IMG/VR virus record: IMGVR_UViG_2675903330_000003
Reading direction: 5' to 3' (one strand)
From: a virus
Lineage: Duplodnaviria; Heunggongvirae; Uroviricota; Caudoviricetes
DNA length: 12,610 nt
The translations under genes were made by a program, and so were the position numbers. Shown in pieces: positions 2,398 through 8,134 of the stretch. Position 1 is the first letter of the stretch; each line of letters begins with the position of its first letter. Under the pieces are notes generated by a model that saw nothing but the letters and a program-made list of their open reading frames with translations, was not told where the DNA came from and did no database searches.

Positions 2398-3519
2398 TTA
2401 GTCATCAACCGCGACTCCTGCACAATCATGGGCTATTGCCAGCAATTGTTTTTTAATTGCTTTAGCATCTACCGTCATATCTACTGTAGCAAAATGGATC
2501 TTATGTCCCTGAGTGACAACATACTCATTAAGCATATAGCCAACAGCTGGATGAAGTAGAAGACCAGCGGCATTGAGCGAAAGCGGATCCGTCTTGTTCT
2601 CCTGTGTTCTAAGGTAGGTATATAGCTGATAAATATAGCCATTACGTAGTGATTGCTCCCGATGCCAACCCTTTGTCAGAATCGAATTAAATTTGGTATC
2701 GATAATAATACGCCGCTGGGCAGTCTTGTGTTCCAGAATAATGTCTGACTTCATTGTCGGGAAAATCTCTGCACTACCTGCACTTTGATCGCTCAACGCC
2801 CATTTCAGCTCTTTCCCTGCAGAGACCTGCCAAGTTGTTTTGGCAAGGTGTACACGATATAAGCCAGCGATACCTTTTTCAAATAGTCTTCTCATCCAGT
2901 AAAGGTTATTTGAGGGCGCAGGTAAAAGATATTGGCCTTGATCTTCGGTCGGCATCAGCAGTTCAAAAGCTAATCGTGCGGCATCGACCATCGGTTTATC
3001 TGCGGCATCATGGCGTCCAAAACGCCACACTGAGGGTAATTCGCGGGGGGCAGGATATCCTCCATTTATCCCCTCACGGCGAAGTGATATTGCCATAAAA
3101 TGGCAATCTGCCGCCAAAGACGGTTTCACTATGATTGAGGCCAGACGTTCTAACGCACAGCGAACATAGCGATTTCGGGGGGTGTTGAGGGTTATGTCTT
3201 GAAAATGGCAGGCAACCTGTCCCCGTTCCAGCAGTTGATGACTGGCAGTATACAGTATGTCAATGCGCCCTCTCACCCGGTTCAGGGCCGCATGACAAGT
3301 TTGGTATCCCATATTTAAATTGCGACGTCGGCGCAGCGTAATCTCATGAAGGAGGATTGTCGCCACCAGGTCGGGGATTTCTGCTGGGTTATCTTCTACT
3401 GCGATCTGATTGCGCCCTAACTGGCGAAACAGATCTGAAGCGTACAGCATCAGCATCCAGATATTTCGCATGGGAATACGTGATGCTGTATGTTGCTCAC
3501 TCCCGGTTATTGTCGTCAT
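2398..3519 (-). CDS. McrC-family endonuclease subunit of a Type IV (modification-dependent) restriction system, 373 aa
   Basis: N-terminal RIPMRNIWMLMLYAS resembles E. coli McrC PVIPVRNIYYMLTYAW. C-terminal SDIILEHK...RRIIIDTKF...YIYQLYTYL...AGLLLHP parallels McrC TDITIRSSEKILIVDAKYY...NLYQLMNYL...GGLLIYP, including the PD-(D/E)xK-type D...DxK motif. ATGA start/stop overlap with the upstream McrB-like gene. Confidence 0.85.
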   Translation of the reverse strand: MTTITGSEQHTASRIPMRNIWMLMLYASDLFRQLGRNQIAVEDNPAEIPDLVATILLHEITLRRRRNLNMGYQTCHAALNRVRGRIDILYTASHQLLERGQVACHFQDITLNTPRNRYVRCALERLASIIVKPSLAADCHFMAISLRREGINGGYPAPRELPSVWRFGRHDAADKPMVDAARLAFELLMPTEDQGQYLLPAPSNNLYWMRRLFEKGIAGLYRVHLAKTTWQVSAGKELKWALSDQSAGSAEIFPTMKSDIILEHKTAQRRIIIDTKFNSILTKGWHREQSLRNGYIYQLYTYLRTQENKTDPLSLNAAGLLLHPAVGYMLNEYVVTQGHKIHFATVDMTVDAKAIKKQLLAIAHDCAGVAVDD

Positions 3520-5498
3520 TTTGCTAATAACACTTTTCTGGCTTCATCGACTTTATTTGGAGCATCGAACCAATATTCGGCGAGCAAAGGGCAGATCTCT
3601 GTATCAACGACTTGTTCATACCAAGCCTGGGCATCGTTGATTTTTTGGCCGATAGCTGGGGTGACATAGCTGTGACCGATACAAAACTGTGGTCCTAAGG
3701 TAACATCTTTTGCCAGCATATCGTTTAATACCGTCAGTCGAGATTTGATGAATGCTAACATGTCAAAATCAATTGCGTAATTATAATTTACCCAGTTTCT
3801 CCACGCGTCATTAAAAGCTGGCTTTAGATCGATAAACGCGAAACGACGGCGCAGCGCTAGGTCAAGTAGTGCGAGTGAGCGGTCTGCAATATTCATCGTA
3901 CCGATGATATATAGATTCTCAGGAATGTATATTTTTTCATCAGCATTTTTAGGATAGGAAAGAGATAATGCCTCAGTCGGCGTGCGTTTATCTGCTTCCA
4001 TCAACGTGAGTGTTTCACCGAAGATTTGCGCCGGATTGCCACGATTAATCTCTTCAATTATCACCACATATTTCGAGGTAGGATTATTGACTGCAGTTTT
4101 GATTGCATTTACAAAAGGTCCATCAATTAGCGTCAATTGCCCTTCTTTACCTGGACGCCAGCCTCGAATAAAGTCTTCGTAAGAGAGGTTCGGGTGAAAT
4201 TGCACCGCGCTAATACGCTCAGGTGCTTTTTCTCCCATCAAGCAGTACGCCAGACGTCGCGCTAACCAAGTTTTTCCAGTTCCGGGTGGTCCTTGTAATA
4301 TCAGGTTTTTCTTGTCGATCAGGCGCTGAAGTGTGAGTTGGATCTTAGCCTCTTCCAAGAAACAGCCATCCTGCACCAGATGACTGATGTCATAAGGAAC
4401 GTGGGTGAGTTTTGGCAACAGCGCACTCTCTTCGACAGTTTCCTCAGTTATCGTCTGGGATTCGTTTTTCTCAAAATTCAGGTATTCATAATTTCCGGAC
4501 TCGAGGGACTTTAACTCATCATCATTGCATAGTTTCTGTAGATAAAAGTAGATTGAGCTTGTAACAGTTTTGCTCTCAGGATGCTCTACCTTGAATACGT
4601 CCAAGTAGTTTTCTTCCAACTCCGAAGCAGTGAAATAAGGGCCATTTTTTTTCAGGCATAACGCCTTAATTTTATTCAGTAAAGAGGCTTTCCACGTTCT
4701 ATTTGCCACCTCATCTTTAGACTGGCTAAGATCTGTATTCCACGCTGATAAGGAAAGTTCTGGGAAAGAATGAACCGGATAGTTTGGTTGGGTAAAGACC
4801 TCGTTCAGCGCCCGCATAAGACTCAGGTAACTTTGTCCACTACAGCGACCTTTTGCCCCGTTTTTAATGATCTTAATGTTTAACACTGTCTGAATGTAAT
4901 ACTGCGACTGGCTATCTAAAGTGGGGTAGAACCAAGGACGGGTCCAGTACAACCCCATGGTGAGATTCCAACCGACATTCATTACTGTAGAAGCGATGTC
5001 ATATGCGGCAGTGAAGTCTGCAGAGTTAGTATTCTGGTTATCCGCAAAGATCATTGCCTGTGAGAACATTTCCCACAAGCATTCAATGTCATTAGGGTCG
5101 CGTGACTTTTCATAACCAAAGAACCAAGATTTTTGGTTATTCAACAGAGGGATTCCGGCAAAGGAGTCAGGAATCGGTTCGTTCACGCCCAACAAATTCG
5201 CTAGCTTGGCAGCAATAATTTTGCGATTGCTGTCGGTCAAGTTACGATTGAACAAGCCCATAGTAGTAAACGGACAAATGTCTTTTAAGGGAAAGATCTC
5301 TCCCATAATAGATTTGTCCTGCAGATGGGACATTCCTTCCACACCCGAGGCAATTAGATGAATACCTTTGACTAATTCATCTCTACGATTTCGCCAAGTC
5401 AGTAACGCGTTGGCAAAAGCCTCATAAAAACTAGCCCAAGCAAACTTGCCATCATGTTCTGCTGTATCCACGGGAACTCCATTATACTTGTTGAGCAA
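3516..5498 (-). CDS. McrB-family GTPase (AAA+) subunit with an extended ~380-aa N-terminal region, 660 aa as called
   Basis: C-terminal half contains LILQGPPGTGKTWLARRLAY...VQFHPNLSYEDFIRGWRP...LYIIGTMNIADRSLALLDLALRRRFAF...CIGHSYV...PLLAEYWFD, closely paralleling the E. coli McrB GTPase domain. The start is uncertain: the track start is TTG at 5498 with no SD, while an in-frame GTG at 5471 is preceded by GGAG at 5-nt spacing. Confidence 0.85.
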   Translation of the reverse strand: MLNKYNGVPVDTAEHDGKFAWASFYEAFANALLTWRNRRDELVKGIHLIASGVEGMSHLQDKSIMGEIFPLKDICPFTTMGLFNRNLTDSNRKIIAAKLANLLGVNEPIPDSFAGIPLLNNQKSWFFGYEKSRDPNDIECLWEMFSQAMIFADNQNTNSADFTAAYDIASTVMNVGWNLTMGLYWTRPWFYPTLDSQSQYYIQTVLNIKIIKNGAKGRCSGQSYLSLMRALNEVFTQPNYPVHSFPELSLSAWNTDLSQSKDEVANRTWKASLLNKIKALCLKKNGPYFTASELEENYLDVFKVEHPESKTVTSSIYFYLQKLCNDDELKSLESGNYEYLNFEKNESQTITEETVEESALLPKLTHVPYDISHLVQDGCFLEEAKIQLTLQRLIDKKNLILQGPPGTGKTWLARRLAYCLMGEKAPERISAVQFHPNLSYEDFIRGWRPGKEGQLTLIDGPFVNAIKTAVNNPTSKYVVIIEEINRGNPAQIFGETLTLMEADKRTPTEALSLSYPKNADEKIYIPENLYIIGTMNIADRSLALLDLALRRRFAFIDLKPAFNDAWRNWVNYNYAIDFDMLAFIKSRLTVLNDMLAKDVTLGPQFCIGHSYVTPAIGQKINDAQAWYEQVVDTEICPLLAEYWFDAPNKVDEARKVLLAK

Positions 5499-5831
5499 TG
5501 ATAATTTATCTGTGTGAGTTTTAACATATTACTATCAGTTATAGAAAAATTTAACTATCCGATACAGAGAGCGGAATGCTGAATTTGACCTGACTTGCTT
5601 CCAACCAATTAAAATCAACTTATTTATCAATTGGTTATTTTGGCACATGGCGGTCATCAAGGCAATATCGCGTTGTCATAAGGTGTCGAGGCTCGGAGGT
5701 TCAAATCCTCTCATACAAAAAATAAATAAAATTAATGACGGTTGGAAATTATTCAATACACTCTCGAAAGTACATCAGCCAACCGCAGCACGTTATTGCA
5801 TATAACGTTTCTGCGGCATATCACAAAACTA

Positions 5832-6416
5832 TTATTCCATAACAGGGATTGCAGGCCACTCAATATCAGGTGCAGTTGATGTATCAACACGATTCAGCAA
5901 CACCCGATACTTCTTCCAGGCTTCAAGCAACGAGGTTTCTTCCTCCGTTGCGATTTCCAGATCTGCAGCATCCTGAAGCGGGGCAATATGCTCACTGGCT
6001 ACCTGCATCAGGCTGTTTTTTGTTTCTTCCGCCTCCCGGATCCGGAACAGTTTTTCTGCTTCCGTATCCTTCACCCAGGCTGTGCCGTTCCACTTCTGAA
6101 ACTCCCCTTCCGGGGATAACCAGGTGATATTTTCCGGTAGAGGTCCGAGTTCAGAAATAAATAACGAGTCGCCGGAAGCCACGTCATAGACGGTTTTTCC
6201 CCGATGATCTTCAACGAGATGCCACGATGCCTCATCACTGTTGAAAACAGCCACGAAGCCTACCGGAATATCTGGCGGTGCAATATAGGTACTGTTTGCT
6301 GGCAGACCTGTATGAGGCGGAATATATGCGTCACCTTCACCAATAAATTCATTAGTTCCGGCCAGCAGATTATAAATTTTTATGGTCCGTGGTTGTTCAC
6401 TCATTCTGAATGCCAT
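5832..6416 (-). CDS. tfa: Tail fibre assembly protein (Tfa), 194 aa
   Basis: Sequence [24 protein letters not shown]...EWPAIPVME recognised as the lambdoid TfaQ/TfaR family. Its ATG shares one base with the stop of the upstream stf fragment (TAATG), the typical stf-tfa arrangement. Confidence 0.85.
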
Positions 6417-7368
6417 TATGCAAGCCTCACAATGTAGTTAAATGCGATGTTTTTGACGGTGTTTTCCGCGTTACCAGCAGCGTTAACGGTGATGGTGTGT
6501 CCATGTGAGCCAATCGCAACGGAGTGCGTATGAGCACCAATACCGACAGTATGTGCATGTGCGCCTGCGCTTGCAGCAGTGCCGGACAGCGAGTGGGTAT
6601 GAGCACCATCTGATGATGTCTTCCCTGCATTACGAGTCTGGCCACTACCGCTTGTTGTGCTCATAATCCCCGCGCTTGGATTTGAAATCGCGGTATAACC
6701 ATTAGGGAAAATGCTCGTGTTCGTGCCACCAAATGCACCGGAACTCTTGTGTTGGTGCGCGCCGGCACTATTTGCGGTCCCGCTAATACTATGGGTATGC
6801 GCCCCGGTGTTATTCGTGGATTTGGTTCCGTAATCAAACGACGATGTGGTTTTCGTCCCCAAATCCGTACTGGATGCGCTGGCGCTGTGGGTGTGCGATT
6901 TAATGCCGTCCTGTTCCTGAGATAATACGGCCCGACCACTGGCGGGCTTGCCCTTAATCGTCCAGCCACGCATATCAGGGATCACGCCTGACGGATAAGC
7001 AACTGCAAGTTTCGGGTATGCAGATTTGTCAAAAGTCTGCCCCTGCATCAGGGCATAACCAGACGGAACGGTATCTGATGGCCACGGGATTGGTGCACCG
7101 ACTGGATAAAACTCTGCAGGAGGATGAGCCGAGGTGTAAAGCTGCGCCCACGGCGACCAGTTTGCGTCGGTCGTATCCCGTCGTGAACGAATAAATGCCG
7201 GAGCATGAGCACCGCTTGTACCACTCCAGCCGATGAGTAACTCACCTTCGCCAACGGCTGTCATCCCTTTCAGGTGAATGATATTTCCATACGCTGTTGG
7301 ATATCCGTTGTTATACACCTCGTATAACTCAAGACCTGCTGCCCCCTGCGTATTGTCTGTCAGCGCGG
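6416..7368 (-). pseudogene. stf: 3' fragment of a side tail fibre gene (stf), C-terminal ~300+ aa with His-rich GAHTHS repeats
   Basis: Repeats ([44 protein letters not shown]) are typical of lambdoid Stf C-terminal domains. The frame is open upstream to ~7387 with no ATG; the track start at 7318 is a GTG. Directly abutted by the truncated terminase gene, so the N-terminal part is missing. Confidence 0.7.
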
Positions 7369-7614
7369 TTAACCGACACGGGCAGACTTCACCACATTCA
7401 CCTCACGGATGTAGTCGCTGCCCATCGCATTCATGATGGCCCGCTGAAAGGGCAGTGTTTCCCAGCGCCCTTCCTGGTATGCGGATTCTTTCGGGAGATA
7501 GTAATTAGCATCCGCCCATTCAACGGCGGTCTGTGGCTCCGGCCTGAACAGTGAGCGAAGCCCGGCGCGGACAAAATGCCGCAGCCTGTTAACCTGACTG
7601 TTCGATATATTCAC
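7369..7614 (-). pseudogene. Truncated terminase large subunit (lambda gpA N-terminal 81 codons only)
   Basis: [81 protein letters not shown] matches the lambda gpA N-terminus as recalled (full length ~641 aa). The frame ends at TAA 7369..7371, after which the sequence switches to stf. Start overlaps the 3' end of the Nu1 gene as in lambda. Confidence 0.85.
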
Positions 7615-8134
7615 TCAGCAACCCCGGTATCAGTTCATCCAGCGCGGCTGCTTTGTTCATGGCTTTGATGATATCCCGTTTCAGGAAATCAACATGTCGG
7701 TTTTCCAGTTCCGGAAAACGCCGCTGCACCGACAGGGGGATCCCGTCGAGAATACTGGCAATTTCACCTGCGATCCGCGACAGCACGAAAGTACAGAATG
7801 CGGTTTCCACCACTTCAGCGGAGTCTCTGGCATTTTTCAGCTCCTGTGCGTCGGCCTGCGCACGCGTAAGTCGATGGCGTTCGTACTCAATAGTCCCTGG
7901 CTGGAGATCTGTCTCGCTGGCCTGCCGCAGTTCTTCAACTTCCCGGCGCAGCTTTTCGTTCTCAATTTCAGCATCCCTTTCGGCATACCATTTTATGACG
8001 GCGGCAGAATCATAAAGCACCTCATTACCCTTGCCACCGCCTCGCAGAACGGGCATTCCCTGTTCCTGCCAGTTCTGAATGGTACGGATACTCGCACCGA
8101 AAATGTCAGCCAGCTGCTTTTTGTTGACTTCCAT
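7589..8134 (-). CDS. nohA: Terminase small subunit (lambda Nu1 homolog), 181 aa, apparently intact
   Basis: Full-length match to lambda Nu1 as recalled (MEVNKKQLADIFGASIRTIQNWQEQGMPVLRGGGKGNEVLYDSAAVIKWYAERD...SEYIEQSG), located immediately downstream of the cos site. Confidence 0.9.
   Translation of the reverse strand: MEVNKKQLADIFGASIRTIQNWQEQGMPVLRGGGKGNEVLYDSAAVIKWYAERDAEIENEKLRREVEELRQASETDLQPGTIEYERHRLTRAQADAQELKNARDSAEVVETAFCTFVLSRIAGEIASILDGIPLSVQRRFPELENRHVDFLKRDIIKAMNKAAALDELIPGLLSEYIEQSG

What the first reader, a model, noticed from the sequence alone, without database searches (positions are those of the whole stretch)
4350..5498. McrB homolog has a ~380-aa N-terminal region far longer than the E. 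coli McrB DNA-reader domain
The GTPase domain begins around residue 385 (LILQGPPGTGKT), whereas in E. coli McrB it begins around residue 190. The preceding region (Trp/Tyr-rich, e.g. GLYWTRPWFYPTLDSQSQYY) showed no resemblance I could see to the E. coli McrB N-terminal domain. In McrBC systems the N-terminal domain determines which DNA modification is recognised, so this is a candidate for an uncharacterised specificity, possibly two fused domains.
Basis: inference. Interest (0 to 1): 0.7.

Follow-up and report, generated by a model that had tools for sequence, protein, structure and literature searches.

The report
McrB with glycosylase-like and winged-helix sensors
This E. coli prophage carries a McrBC-type restriction system whose motor protein has swapped the usual methylcytosine reader for two other domains, a conserved helical domain that looks distantly like a DNA-repair glycosylase and a DpnI-type winged helix; the layout has been catalogued before, but nobody knows what DNA it attacks.

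Summary
The ORF is a real 651-aa McrB homologue. It starts at GTG 5471, not TTG 5498. Its GTPase begins near residue 369, against about 176 in E. coli K-12 McrB, and nothing upstream resembles the K-12 reader domain.

The N-terminal region is two domains plus an acidic linker.
- **D1 (residues 1-247):** an all-helical domain, listed in the newest Pfam as DUF8425. It is 50-60% identical across phyla and has about 2,500 representative clusters. Its best structural neighbours, for two independent models and two programs, are EndoIII/Ogg (HhH-GPD) DNA glycosylases. All scores are weak, and sequence profiles do not confirm the link.
- **D2 (residues ~255-330):** a DpnI-type winged helix. Its family profile hits only DpnI in the PDB (E=7.7e-12).

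An intact McrC follows. The operon occupies the cargo slot where K-12 prophage e14 carries mcrA.

Both halves of this layout are already in the literature, untested: "NTD-wH-NTPase" (Helbrecht 2024) and "inactivated EndoIII sensor fused to a McrB-like GTPase" (Yee 2025).

Most likely this is a Type IV restriction system that senses non-canonical or hypermodified phage DNA. Its specificity is unknown. I rate it a new member of a known kind, of moderate interest.

The parts
3516..5471 (-). mcrB-like gene: 651 aa, GTG start, stop codon included (RefSeq WP_000379040.1)
   Evidence: ORF. RefSeq annotation. GGAG ribosome-binding site 5 nt upstream. AAA_5 E=8e-27. McrB NF008457 E=6e-78.
5477..5480 (-). 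GGAG Shine-Dalgarno sequence, 5 nt before the GTG start
   Evidence: Read directly from the sequence.
4731..5471 (-). D1, residues 1-247: conserved all-helical domain (Pfam 38 PF28527 = DUF8425) with a remote EndoIII/Ogg (HhH-GPD) glycosylase-like fold; the proposed sensor of non-canonical bases
4893..4979 (-). Most conserved D1 motif, NVGWNLTMGLYWTRPWFYPTLDSQSQYYI (residues 165-193): a possible helix-hairpin-helix, Gly/Pro loop and Asp signature. Asp186 is D/E in 270 of 284 sequences. Asn169 sits at the position of the catalytic Lys and is K in 38 of 284.
   Evidence: Helices 151-160, 169-177 and 187-196 flank the motif. Column counts. hhalign places D186 on MutY D138 and N169 on MutY S120, but without significance (P=0.043). 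The equivalence is an inference.
4482..4709 (-). D2, residues ~255-330: DpnI-type winged-helix domain (PF17726 DpnI_C), diverged in the E. coli clade
   Evidence: This copy scores E=0.013, 16.1 bits, below the cut-off of 23, over profile positions 2-69 of 70. Orthologous domains score 30.7-47.1 bits. The D2 family profile hits only the DpnI 4esj/4kyw winged helix, residues 186-256, at E=7.7e-12.
4368..4481 (-). Acidic, poorly conserved linker (residues 331-368)
   Evidence: Variable or gapped in the alignment of homologues. No family hit.
3519..4367 (-). McrB-type AAA+ GTPase and lid (residues 369-651)
   Evidence: 47% identity to K-12 McrB 178-457. The PDB profile hits 6hz4, 6ut6 and 7vsr McrB at E~1e-99. 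PF07728 and PF28529 McrB_lid.
4269..4292 (-). Walker A motif GPPGTGKT (residues 394-401)
3882..3893 (-). McrB GTPase signature NxxD, here NIAD (residues 527-530)
   Evidence: The motif is defined in Bell et al. 2024.
2398..3519 (-). mcrC gene: DUF2357 domain plus PD-(D/E)xK nuclease. The longest ORF starts at an ATG that overlaps the mcrB stop codon (ATGA). RefSeq starts it at the ATG at 3471 (357 aa).
   Evidence: PF10117 E=5e-21. NF007277 McrC equivalog, 356 bits against a cut-off of 338. 24% identity to K-12 McrC over its full length, with D...DxK conserved (SD...IDTK against TD...VDAK). ATGA overlap read.

Best explanation
[quoted passage not shown] The system is carried as cargo at the attR end of an e14-like prophage at icd.

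**Domain layout.** The 651-aa McrB homologue has four parts:
- **D1 (residues 1-247, DUF8425).** A highly conserved all-helical domain. Its fold is most like the EndoIII/Ogg (HhH-GPD) DNA glycosylases. It is probably a repurposed glycosylase domain, with Asn at the position of the lyase Lys, that probes DNA for non-canonical or hypermodified bases. Yee et al. proposed the same role for the 'iEndoIII' sensor of END nucleases.
- **D2 (residues ~255-330).** A DpnI-type winged helix that binds double-stranded DNA. It either adds a second read-out or simply anchors the complex.
- **An acidic linker.**
- **The McrB GTPase and lid.**

**Proposed mechanism (inferred).** The sensors bind modified phage DNA. 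The GTPase hexamer recruits McrC and translocates using GTP hydrolysis. McrC's PD-(D/E)xK site then cuts the DNA.

**Shown and inferred.** The domain boundaries, the D2 family membership, the intact GTPase and McrC motifs, the genomic context and the distribution are shown. The glycosylase-like nature of D1, base sensing by D1, and the target modification are inferred.
For: **GTPase and McrC are intact and McrBC-like**. No methyltransferase is adjacent, which fits a modification-dependent system.

**D1 behaves as a conserved, self-sufficient, modular DNA-facing domain.**
- It has 2,501 representative clusters.
- Among the 148 newly returned proteins in the list of 150 best matches, 42 are D1-AAA alone. 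About 50 are X-D1-AAA (X being an unnamed ~160-aa domain), about 17 carry tandem D1 copies, and others are D1-EVE-AAA or D1-winged helix-AAA.
- D1 also occurs without a GTPase, fused to FRG or EVE domains.

**D1's structural neighbours are HhH-GPD glycosylases, consistently but weakly.**
- Foldseek: the top 50 hits are exclusively HhH-GPD glycosylases (SsOgg 3fhg, Tm1821 3n0u, MjOgg 3knt, OGG1, MutY).
- A second model, from a relative only 32% identical, puts Tm1821 Ogg, DrEndoIII-3 and hOGG1 at ranks 1-3, and also lists CacOgg, DrAlkA, NTHL1 and Mag1.

**Literature fits.** Yee et al. 2025 show that an inactivated EndoIII/Ogg domain senses hypermodified DNA in defence nucleases. They found this sensor fused to a McrB-like GTPase. 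The best HHpred templates for their END-Mag sensor are the same archaeal and Thermotoga Ogg structures.

**D2 is a DpnI-type winged helix**. Helbrecht et al. 2024 describe NTD-wH-NTPase plus McrC as putative Type IV systems.

**The genomic context is defensive.**
- The operon fills the slot where K-12 e14 carries mcrA.
- A relative lies beside a Type I R-M system in the SXT/R391 element R997.
- The operon is present, nearly identical, in 305 of 5,426 complete E. coli genomes.
Against: **The glycosylase-fold assignment is not statistically secured.**
- HMM searches of D1 against Pfam (including HhH-GPD and OGG-like models) and against PDB sequences find nothing.
- hhalign against Nth, MutY, AlkA and an 81-sequence Nth family gives P=0.016-0.35.
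- The hairpin glycine is poorly conserved (G167 in 140 of 284 sequences).

**I could not obtain an END nuclease sequence.** So I could not test directly whether D1 is the 'iEndoIII' domain of Yee et al. No PLD-fused D1 turned up.

Its unusually high conservation and its co-occurrence with known readers (EVE, winged helix) are also compatible with a non-reader role.

**D2 raises a self-targeting problem.** A DpnI-like winged helix that read Dam sites would be self-toxic in E. coli. D2 therefore cannot work exactly like DpnI's domain here.
Confidence: 0.55

Rival explanations
1. D1 (DUF8425) is not a base reader. It is a conserved scaffold of this McrB subfamily, serving for example non-specific DNA clamping or loading, hexamer regulation or autoinhibition. 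Target specificity would lie in the variable accessory modules, which here means the DpnI-type winged helix D2.
For: - D1 is as conserved as the GTPase (48-60% against 55-65% identity). Readers caught in an arms race usually vary more.
- The slots before and after D1 hold changing modules: X, EVE, an HTH_24 winged helix, the DpnI_C winged helix, and unassigned stretches of 100-500 aa.
- The fold evidence for a glycosylase-like D1 is weak.
Against: - About 30% of the listed family members are D1-AAA with no other N-terminal module. D1 can therefore be the only DNA-facing domain.
- D1 occurs in tandem copies, and it occurs away from any GTPase, fused to FRG or EVE. Both patterns are typical of a sensor module.
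- Broad, modification-agnostic sensing, as reported for iEndoIII, would also explain the high conservation.
Confidence: 0.25
2. D1 is an active monofunctional DNA glycosylase. It would excise a modified phage base, and the resulting abasic sites or the enzyme-DNA complex would then trigger or complement McrBC cleavage.
For: - The acidic residue at the position inferred to match the catalytic Asp is retained in 270 of 284 D1 sequences. A Lys occupies the lyase-Lys position in 38 of 284.
- Active glycosylases are proven antiphage effectors (Brig1 and Brig3).
Against: - The residue equivalence rests on a non-significant alignment.
- The related END sensors lack the catalytic residues and act only as sensors.
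- In HhH-GPD proteins the Asp also caps a helix, so its conservation may be structural (my own knowledge).
- A dedicated nuclease, McrC, is already present and intact.
Confidence: 0.1
3. The system is an adenine-methylation-dependent (6mA) McrBC. [quoted passage not shown]
For: - D2 belongs to the DpnI_C family.
- Several winged-helix fusion nucleases are toxic in Dam+ cells.
Against: - The host is E. coli, which is Dam+ (my own knowledge), and 305 genomes keep the operon intact. Reading G6mATC would be suicidal.
- Only about 10% of winged-helix fusions keep the 6mA/GATC motif.
- The E. coli D2 recognition helix differs from the family consensus (PESKT..YFYLQKL against PNNNT..RQLQIL) and from DpnI (KNNHIKEKIRQQLQIL). 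It also scores below the Pfam cut-off.
Confidence: 0.08
4. The long N-terminus is an annotation artefact and the true start lies near the GTPase.
For: The only point in favour is that the first in-frame ATG lies at residue 47 of the 651-aa protein, far downstream of the non-ATG start.
Against: The N-terminal 245 residues are conserved at 48-60% identity across phyla and in 2,501 clusters. The domain folds confidently (pLDDT 93.6). A GGAG precedes the GTG at 5471.
Confidence: 0.01

Closest known systems
E. coli K-12 McrBC (EcoKMcrBC), Type IV restriction
   Same: - Two-gene operon with mcrB followed by mcrC.
- GTPase 47% identical, with Walker A and NxxD motifs, and a lid domain.
- McrC 24% identical over its full length, with D...DxK conserved.
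   Different: - The N-terminal 368 aa have no similarity to the 5mC-flipping DUF3578/ADAM domain.
- The location is a prophage cargo slot, not the immigration control region.
'NTD-wH-NTPase' plus McrC-like putative Type IV systems (Helbrecht et al. 2024, PMC11037411)
   Same: [quoted passage not shown]
   Different: That paper gives no accession I could match, so identity of their NTD with D1 is not verified. Their class is uncharacterised: one purification attempt failed.
END nucleases and their 'iEndoIII' sensor (Yee et al. 2025 preprint, PMC12191111)
   Same: - A sensor domain with an EndoIII/Ogg-like fold, used to detect hypermodified phage DNA.
- The authors report this sensor also fused to a McrB-like GTPase.
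- The same PDB neighbours appear (3FHG, MjOgg, TmOgg, DrEndoIII).
   Different: - END enzymes carry PLD or NucS-like nucleases in a single chain. This system has a GTPase motor plus a separate McrC.
- Homology between D1 and END sensors was not tested here, because no END sequence was available.
[quoted passage not shown]
R.DpnI C-terminal winged-helix domain (PDB 4esj/4kyw; PF17726)
   Same: The D2 family profile matches DpnI residues 186-256 at E=7.7e-12. Orthologues pass the Pfam cut-off.
   Different: In DpnI the domain reads fully methylated G6mATC next to a PD-(D/E)xK domain. Here it sits between DUF8425 and a GTPase, in a Dam+ host, with a diverged recognition helix.
McrB homologues with other solved readers (T. 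gammatolerans YTH, S. marinus PUA-like, H. pylori LlaJI.R1 B3-like)
   Same: The same principle applies: a conserved GTPase with a swapped N-terminal DNA-binding module (plus my own knowledge).
   Different: Those readers are beta-rich folds (my own knowledge). D1 is all-helical, and no PUA, EVE or YTH model matches.

Membership tests
McrBC Type IV restriction system | AAA+ GTPase with Walker A, Walker B and the NxxD signature | tested here: met
   GPPGTGKT at 394, VVIIEEINR at 468-476, NIAD at 527. NF008457 E=6e-78. 47% identity to K-12 McrB. PDB McrB hits at E~1e-99.
McrBC Type IV restriction system | Adjacent McrC with a DUF2357 domain and a PD-(D/E)xK nuclease | tested here: met
   PF10117. 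NF007277 at 356 bits against a cut-off of 338. D...DxK aligned with K-12 McrC. The start codon overlaps the mcrB stop codon.
McrBC Type IV restriction system | GTP-dependent cleavage of modified DNA only | not testable with these tools
   This needs biochemistry or phage assays. The lack of an adjacent methyltransferase is consistent with it.
EcoKMcrB N-terminal reader (DUF3578/ADAM) | Sequence or fold similarity to the 5mC-flipping domain | tested here: not met
   No Pfam hit. No BLASTP alignment in the N-terminus. D1 is all-helical.
PUA-superfamily readers (EVE, YTH, SRA, ASCH) | Beta-barrel PUA-like fold, or a match to a family model | tested here: not met
   No hits at E<=10. D1 has 10 helices and only two short strands. 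D2 is a winged helix. Some relatives do carry EVE in the same slot.
DpnI_C winged helix (PF17726) | Match to the family model or to the DpnI winged helix | tested here: met
   The window copy alone is below the cut-off (16.1 against 23 bits). Orthologues score 30.7-47.1 bits. The D2 profile hits the DpnI winged helix at E=7.7e-12 as the only significant PDB match.
DpnI_C winged helix (PF17726) | Residues that form the 6mA methyl pocket and read GATC | not tested
   The residue list is only in a figure I could not read. The recognition helix differs from both DpnI and the family consensus.
HhH-GPD DNA glycosylase superfamily / 'iEndoIII' sensor | Fold similarity to EndoIII, Ogg or MutY | tested here: inconclusive
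HhH-GPD DNA glycosylase superfamily / 'iEndoIII' sensor | Sequence-profile similarity (PF00730, PF21790, or hhalign) | tested here: not met
   No Pfam or PDB HMM hit. hhalign P=0.016-0.35 with the limited templates available. Full HHpred could not be run.
HhH-GPD DNA glycosylase superfamily / 'iEndoIII' sensor | Helix-hairpin-helix with a GhG hairpin, a Gly/Pro loop, and Asp about 18-20 residues after the Lys position | tested here: inconclusive
   Helix-loop-helix at 151-177, then P179 and D186 at the start of helix 187-196. D/E in 270 of 284 sequences. The Lys position is N in 219 and K in 38. The hairpin Gly is present in only 140 of 284. The register comes from a non-significant alignment.
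END nucleases (Yee et al. 2025) | PLD or NucS-like nuclease fused in one chain to the sensor | tested here: not met
   No PLD or NucS domain. The effector here is the GTPase plus a separate McrC. The system may work like an END nuclease at the sensing step, but it is not a member.

The most novel reading that the evidence does not exclude
D1 (DUF8425) is not merely an inactivated sensor. It would be a glycosylase-derived domain that still uses its conserved Asp, either to excise or to trap a hypermodified base. It would act together with the diverged DpnI-type winged helix as a two-key read-out that licenses the McrBC motor-nuclease. That would make this a restriction system coupling base-excision chemistry, or base trapping, to GTP-driven cleavage, with a broad, modification-agnostic target range in E. 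coli.
Probability: 0.12. Interest if true: 0.75.

Novelty: new member of a known kind. Interest (0 to 1): 0.45.

Why it matters
**Practical relevance.** McrBC-family systems decide which modified phage and plasmid DNA a strain accepts. This variant sits in about 5.6% of complete E. coli genomes (305 of 5,426). Close relatives occur in Salmonella, Citrobacter, Enterobacter and Pectobacterium. It could therefore affect phage therapy and cloning with natural isolates, yet its target is unknown.

**Wider reach.** Its first domain belongs to a very large family (about 2,500 clusters at 50% identity) that Pfam still calls a DUF. If D1 is confirmed as a glycosylase-derived sensor, two separate literature observations would turn out to describe one class: the NTD-wH-NTPase fusions and the iEndoIII-McrB fusions. 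That would give a function to the DUF, in a genetically tractable host.

**Ecology.** The operon replaces mcrA in the same prophage slot. This illustrates that e14-type prophages exchange Type IV restriction cargo.

Tried and rejected
**Family searches on D1.** Pfam, NCBIfam and PADLOC scans of D1, relaxed to E<=10, gave no relevant hit. I tried the window copy, 23 relatives and 5 distant relatives.

**D1 profile against PDB sequences.** Only chance hits to choline sulfatase. My first attempt used an alignment that still contained the GTPase, so it returned only AAA+ proteins.

**Profile-profile comparison with known glycosylases.** I ran hhalign of D1 against E. coli Nth, AlkA and MutY fetched from K-12. 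I also ran it against an 81-sequence Nth alignment built from a genome-contig scan. None was significant. The scan returned only 71-95% identical Nth orthologues, so the template profile was shallow.

**Unavailable library.** The afdb50 Foldseek library was not on the machine.

**Attempts to link D1 directly to END nucleases.**
- No supplementary sequences are held for the preprint.
- tblastn of two D1 types against plasmids found only McrB and FRG fusions.
- A protein search with the FRG-type D1 found only DUF8425 with FRG or EVE.

**Other negatives.**
- The supplements of Helbrecht et al. do not list WP_000379040.
- The CoCoNuT census of McrBC systems mentions neither glycosylase nor winged-helix modules.
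- The ~160-aa X domain found upstream of D1 in most relatives has no remnant in this window and no Pfam match.
- The locus has no match among deposited phage genomes.
- The promoter and terminator scan around the operon was at chance level for promoters and gave nothing usable.
- No tRNA or Rfam family lies in the upstream intergenic region.

**Rejected ideas.**
- An artefactual N-terminus, rejected on conservation.
- A PUA, EVE, YTH or SRA fold, rejected on secondary structure.
- My early by-eye claim of a canonical GVG hairpin: the second Gly is present in only about half of the family.
Full report

Yes. The window has a minus-strand ORF at 3516..5498, 660 codons from a TTG. The same DNA is found at 99% identity or better in 305 of 5,426 complete E. 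coli genomes, always on the chromosome. RefSeq annotates it as WP_000379040.1, 'AAA family ATPase', 651 aa. That places the start at the GTG at 5471. A GGAG lies 5 nt upstream of this GTG, and most homologues start there.

In 651-aa numbering, Walker A GPPGTGKT is at 394 and the McrB signature NxxD is NIAD at 527. NCBIfam aligns residues 369-645 to E. coli McrB 176-452 (E=6e-78). BLASTP gives 47% identity over 371-650 against K-12 McrB 178-457, and nothing aligns in the first 370 residues. The N-terminal region is therefore about 368 aa, twice that of K-12 McrB, and unrelated to it.

It is not an ORF-calling artefact. Residues 1-245 are 48-60% identical to proteins from Pseudomonadota, Desulfobacterota, Planctomycetota and many MAGs.

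**2. Anatomy**

BLAST against 120 homologues splits the N-terminus into two parts.

*D1 (residues 1-247).*
- D1 is present in all homologues.
- The local Pfam, NCBIfam and PADLOC copies have no model for it.
- The precomputed annotation from a newer Pfam calls it PF28527, whose name is DUF8425.
- A D1-only profile finds 2,501 representative clusters at E<=1e-3 and 964 at E<=1e-30.

*D2 (residues ~255-330).*
- D2 is present only in a subset: Enterobacterales, Psychrobacter and some MAGs.
- The window copy gives a sub-threshold DpnI_C hit covering the whole model (E=0.013, 16.1 bits against a cut-off of 23).
- The orthologous domains of relatives score 30.7-47.1 bits.
- A profile of 14 D2 sequences finds one significant PDB match: the C-terminal winged helix of R.DpnI (4esj/4kyw residues 186-256, E=7.7e-12).

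*The rest of the protein.* Residues 331-368 form a variable acidic linker. The GTPase and lid follow (PF07728 and PF28529 McrB_lid).

*McrC.*
- The next gene is mcrC (PF10117; NF007277 above its equivalog cut-off).
- It is 24% identical to K-12 McrC over its full length, with the D...DxK catalytic residues aligned.
- Its longest ORF starts at an ATG that overlaps the mcrB stop codon (ATGA). This suggests translational coupling.

**3. What is D1?**

AlphaFold2 with a 73-sequence alignment gives a confident all-helical model (pLDDT 93.6, pTM 0.91, ten helices).

Against solved structures nothing is strong, but the pattern is consistent.

| Search | Result |
|---|---|
| Foldseek, window D1 model | Top 50 hits are all HhH-GPD DNA glycosylases (SsOgg 3fhg E=0.13, Tm1821 3n0u, MjOgg 3knt, OGG1, MutY); TM-scores 0.2-0.39 |

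The most conserved D1 motif is (G)VGWNLTxGLYWxRPWxFPTLDxxSQxYI. In the model it lies on a helix-loop-helix (151-177) followed by a Pro-rich loop. An acidic residue (D186) sits at the start of the next helix. This layout recalls the helix-hairpin-helix, Gly/Pro loop and Asp signature of HhH-GPD enzymes.

Across 284 D1 sequences:
- position 186 is D or E in 270;
- position 169, where bifunctional glycosylases have the lyase Lys, is N in 219 and K in 38;
- the hairpin Gly (167) is present in only 140.

The best hhalign alignment to MutY is collinear over 177 columns. It puts D186 on MutY D138 and N169 on S120, but P is only 0.043.

Every sequence-based test failed to reach significance:
- Pfam, including the HhH-GPD and OGG-like models;
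- the D1 profile against PDB sequences;
- hhalign against Nth, AlkA, MutY and an Nth-family profile.

I therefore treat 'EndoIII/Ogg-like fold' as the best-supported hypothesis, at roughly 60%. It is not established.

**4. Literature**

Two papers bear directly on this protein.

*Helbrecht et al. 2024 (PMC11037411).* They surveyed DpnI-like winged-helix fusions. [quoted passage not shown] These were not characterised; one purification attempt failed. They also note that only about 10% of winged-helix fusions keep the 6mA/GATC motif.

*Yee et al. 2025 (bioRxiv, PMC12191111).*
- They show that a catalytically inactive EndoIII/Ogg1-like domain ('iEndoIII') is the sensor that lets END nucleases restrict phages with many different hypermodified bases.
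- In a reciprocal search they found this sensor fused to a NucS-like nuclease and to 'the McrB-like GTPase'.
- The best HHpred templates for their END-Mag sensor are SsOgg 3FHG, MjOgg and TmOgg. For END-PaCF1 they are DrEndoIII and hOGG1.
- These are the same structures that top my searches.

I could not obtain an END sequence, so I could not test homology with D1 directly. The correspondence is circumstantial but specific.

The CoCoNuT census of McrBC systems does not discuss this module.

**5. Architecture and context in relatives**

Among the 148 newly returned proteins in the list of 150 best D1 matches, the layouts are as follows. X is an unnamed ~160-aa beta-rich domain with no Pfam match.

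| Layout | Count or note |
|---|---|
| X-D1-AAA | about 50 |
| D1-AAA | 42 |
| Tandem D1 (two or three copies) before the AAA, or alone | about 17 |
| D1-X-AAA | 3 |
| X-D1-D2-AAA | 2, plus one truncated |
| 100-500 unassigned residues between D1 and the GTPase | many |

In one protein the slot between D1 and the GTPase holds an EVE domain (39.8 bits). In others an HTH_24 winged helix precedes D1.

D1 also occurs without a GTPase. It is fused to an FRG domain on Bacteroidales plasmids and to EVE in metagenomic proteins.

Relatives sit in defence contexts:
- next to a Type I R-M system in the SXT/R391 element R997;
- near BREX genes on a Deinococcus plasmid;
- with McrC in Clostridium, and in Deinococcus radiodurans MP1;
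- with an unannotated gene of McrC-like size downstream in Rhodococcus.

In Enterobacter hormaechei the two genes form an island between housekeeping genes.

In this window the operon lies between the prophage tail-fibre assembly gene and the partial icd copy. That partial copy marks attR in K-12. K-12 prophage e14 carries pinE and mcrA in exactly this slot.

**6. How it most likely works**

*Shown:*
- an intact McrB-type GTPase with its lid;
- an intact McrC nuclease;
- no adjacent methyltransferase;
- two N-terminal domains, one of them a DpnI-family DNA-binding winged helix.

*Inferred:*
- D1 probes DNA for non-canonical bases in the manner of a glycosylase-derived sensor.
- D2 adds double-stranded-DNA affinity or a second read-out.
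- Engagement licenses GTP-driven translocation by the hexamer-McrC complex, followed by double-strand cleavage of modified phage DNA.

*On D2 and Dam.*
- E. coli is Dam+ (my own knowledge), and the operon is intact in hundreds of genomes. D2 therefore cannot trigger cleavage at G6mATC on its own.
- Its recognition helix has diverged. It reads PESKT..YFYLQKL, against PNNNT..RQLQIL in distant relatives and KNNHIKEKIRQQLQIL in DpnI.
- Whether this divergence is an adaptation to the Dam+ host is speculation.

*On D1's conservation.* Its very high conservation fits either broad, modification-agnostic sensing, as reported for iEndoIII, or a non-reader scaffold role. That scaffold role is the main rival explanation.

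**7. Novelty and verdict**

The region is not an unknown architecture, however:
- Pfam now labels it DUF8425 - DpnI_C - AAA_5 - McrB_lid.
- Both halves have been noted in the literature.

What remains open is its function:
- no member has been characterised;
- D1 is formally a DUF;
- the target modification is unknown.

Linking the 'NTD' of Helbrecht et al. with the 'iEndoIII-McrB' class of Yee et al. is, as far as I could find, not stated anywhere. My evidence for that link is suggestive only.

I rate this a new member of a known kind: McrBC systems with swapped sensor modules. Interest is moderate, raised somewhat by its frequency in E. coli and by how easily it could be tested.

Noticed in passing
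window 2398-5471, compared with L005 (K-12 e14) 15686-17578: The McrB-like/McrC operon fills the cargo slot between the tail-fibre genes and the partial icd copy at attR. In K-12 e14 this slot holds pinE and mcrA. Two unrelated Type IV restriction systems are thus alternative cargo at the same end of prophages integrated at icd.
   Followed up: partly
L001 5993-8608 (strain FORC 064), and hit H1 (strain ML35): In FORC 064 an IS66-family element (ISCro1) sits between the icd fragment and mcrC; it is absent from the window. In ML35 an IS3-family transposase is annotated within the matched locus alongside a 'McrB family protein' and a 'hypothetical protein', and the match is split into two pieces. 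This suggests the IS interrupts the mcrB-like gene.
   Followed up: no
window 3516-3519: The mcrB stop codon and the first ATG of the mcrC ORF overlap (ATGA), which suggests translational coupling. RefSeq instead starts McrC 16 codons downstream, at 3471.
   Followed up: partly
window ~5650-5712, minus strand: The AT-rich 333-bp spacer upstream of mcrB contains GAGGATTTGAACCTCCGAGCC. By eye this looks like the reverse complement of a tRNA T-arm and 3' half, possibly an old attachment-site remnant. ARAGORN and Rfam find no tRNA there.
   Followed up: partly
window 6416-8134, minus strand: A tail-fibre gene (Collar and Phage_fiber repeats) lies only about 270 bp from a lambda Nu1 terminase small-subunit gene. 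The prophage therefore appears to be a rearranged or deleted remnant. No complete E. coli genome in the collection covers 80% or more of the window in one piece.
   Followed up: no
P0025, P0022, P0081 and others, residues 1-160; L007 5527-7725: Most relatives carry an extra ~160-aa N-terminal beta-rich domain ('X', for example CWFVGA...IAIKSSYTRK...VMAIKAIG). It has no Pfam match. It can sit either before D1 or between D1 and the GTPase, so it behaves like a mobile reader module. It is absent from the window, with no remnant upstream.
   Followed up: partly
L006 4998-6482 (Parabacteroides plasmid); P0272, P0282, P0308: DUF8425 also occurs without any GTPase. It is fused to an FRG domain in Bacteroidales plasmids and to EVE in metagenomic proteins. 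It also occurs as two or three tandem copies in front of McrB GTPases (for example P0123, P0125).
   Followed up: partly
L008 3968-6883 (D. radiodurans plasmid MP1): The D1-like region of the Deinococcus 'McrB family protein' starts about 100 codons upstream of the annotated start codon. The deposited start is therefore probably too far downstream.
   Followed up: no
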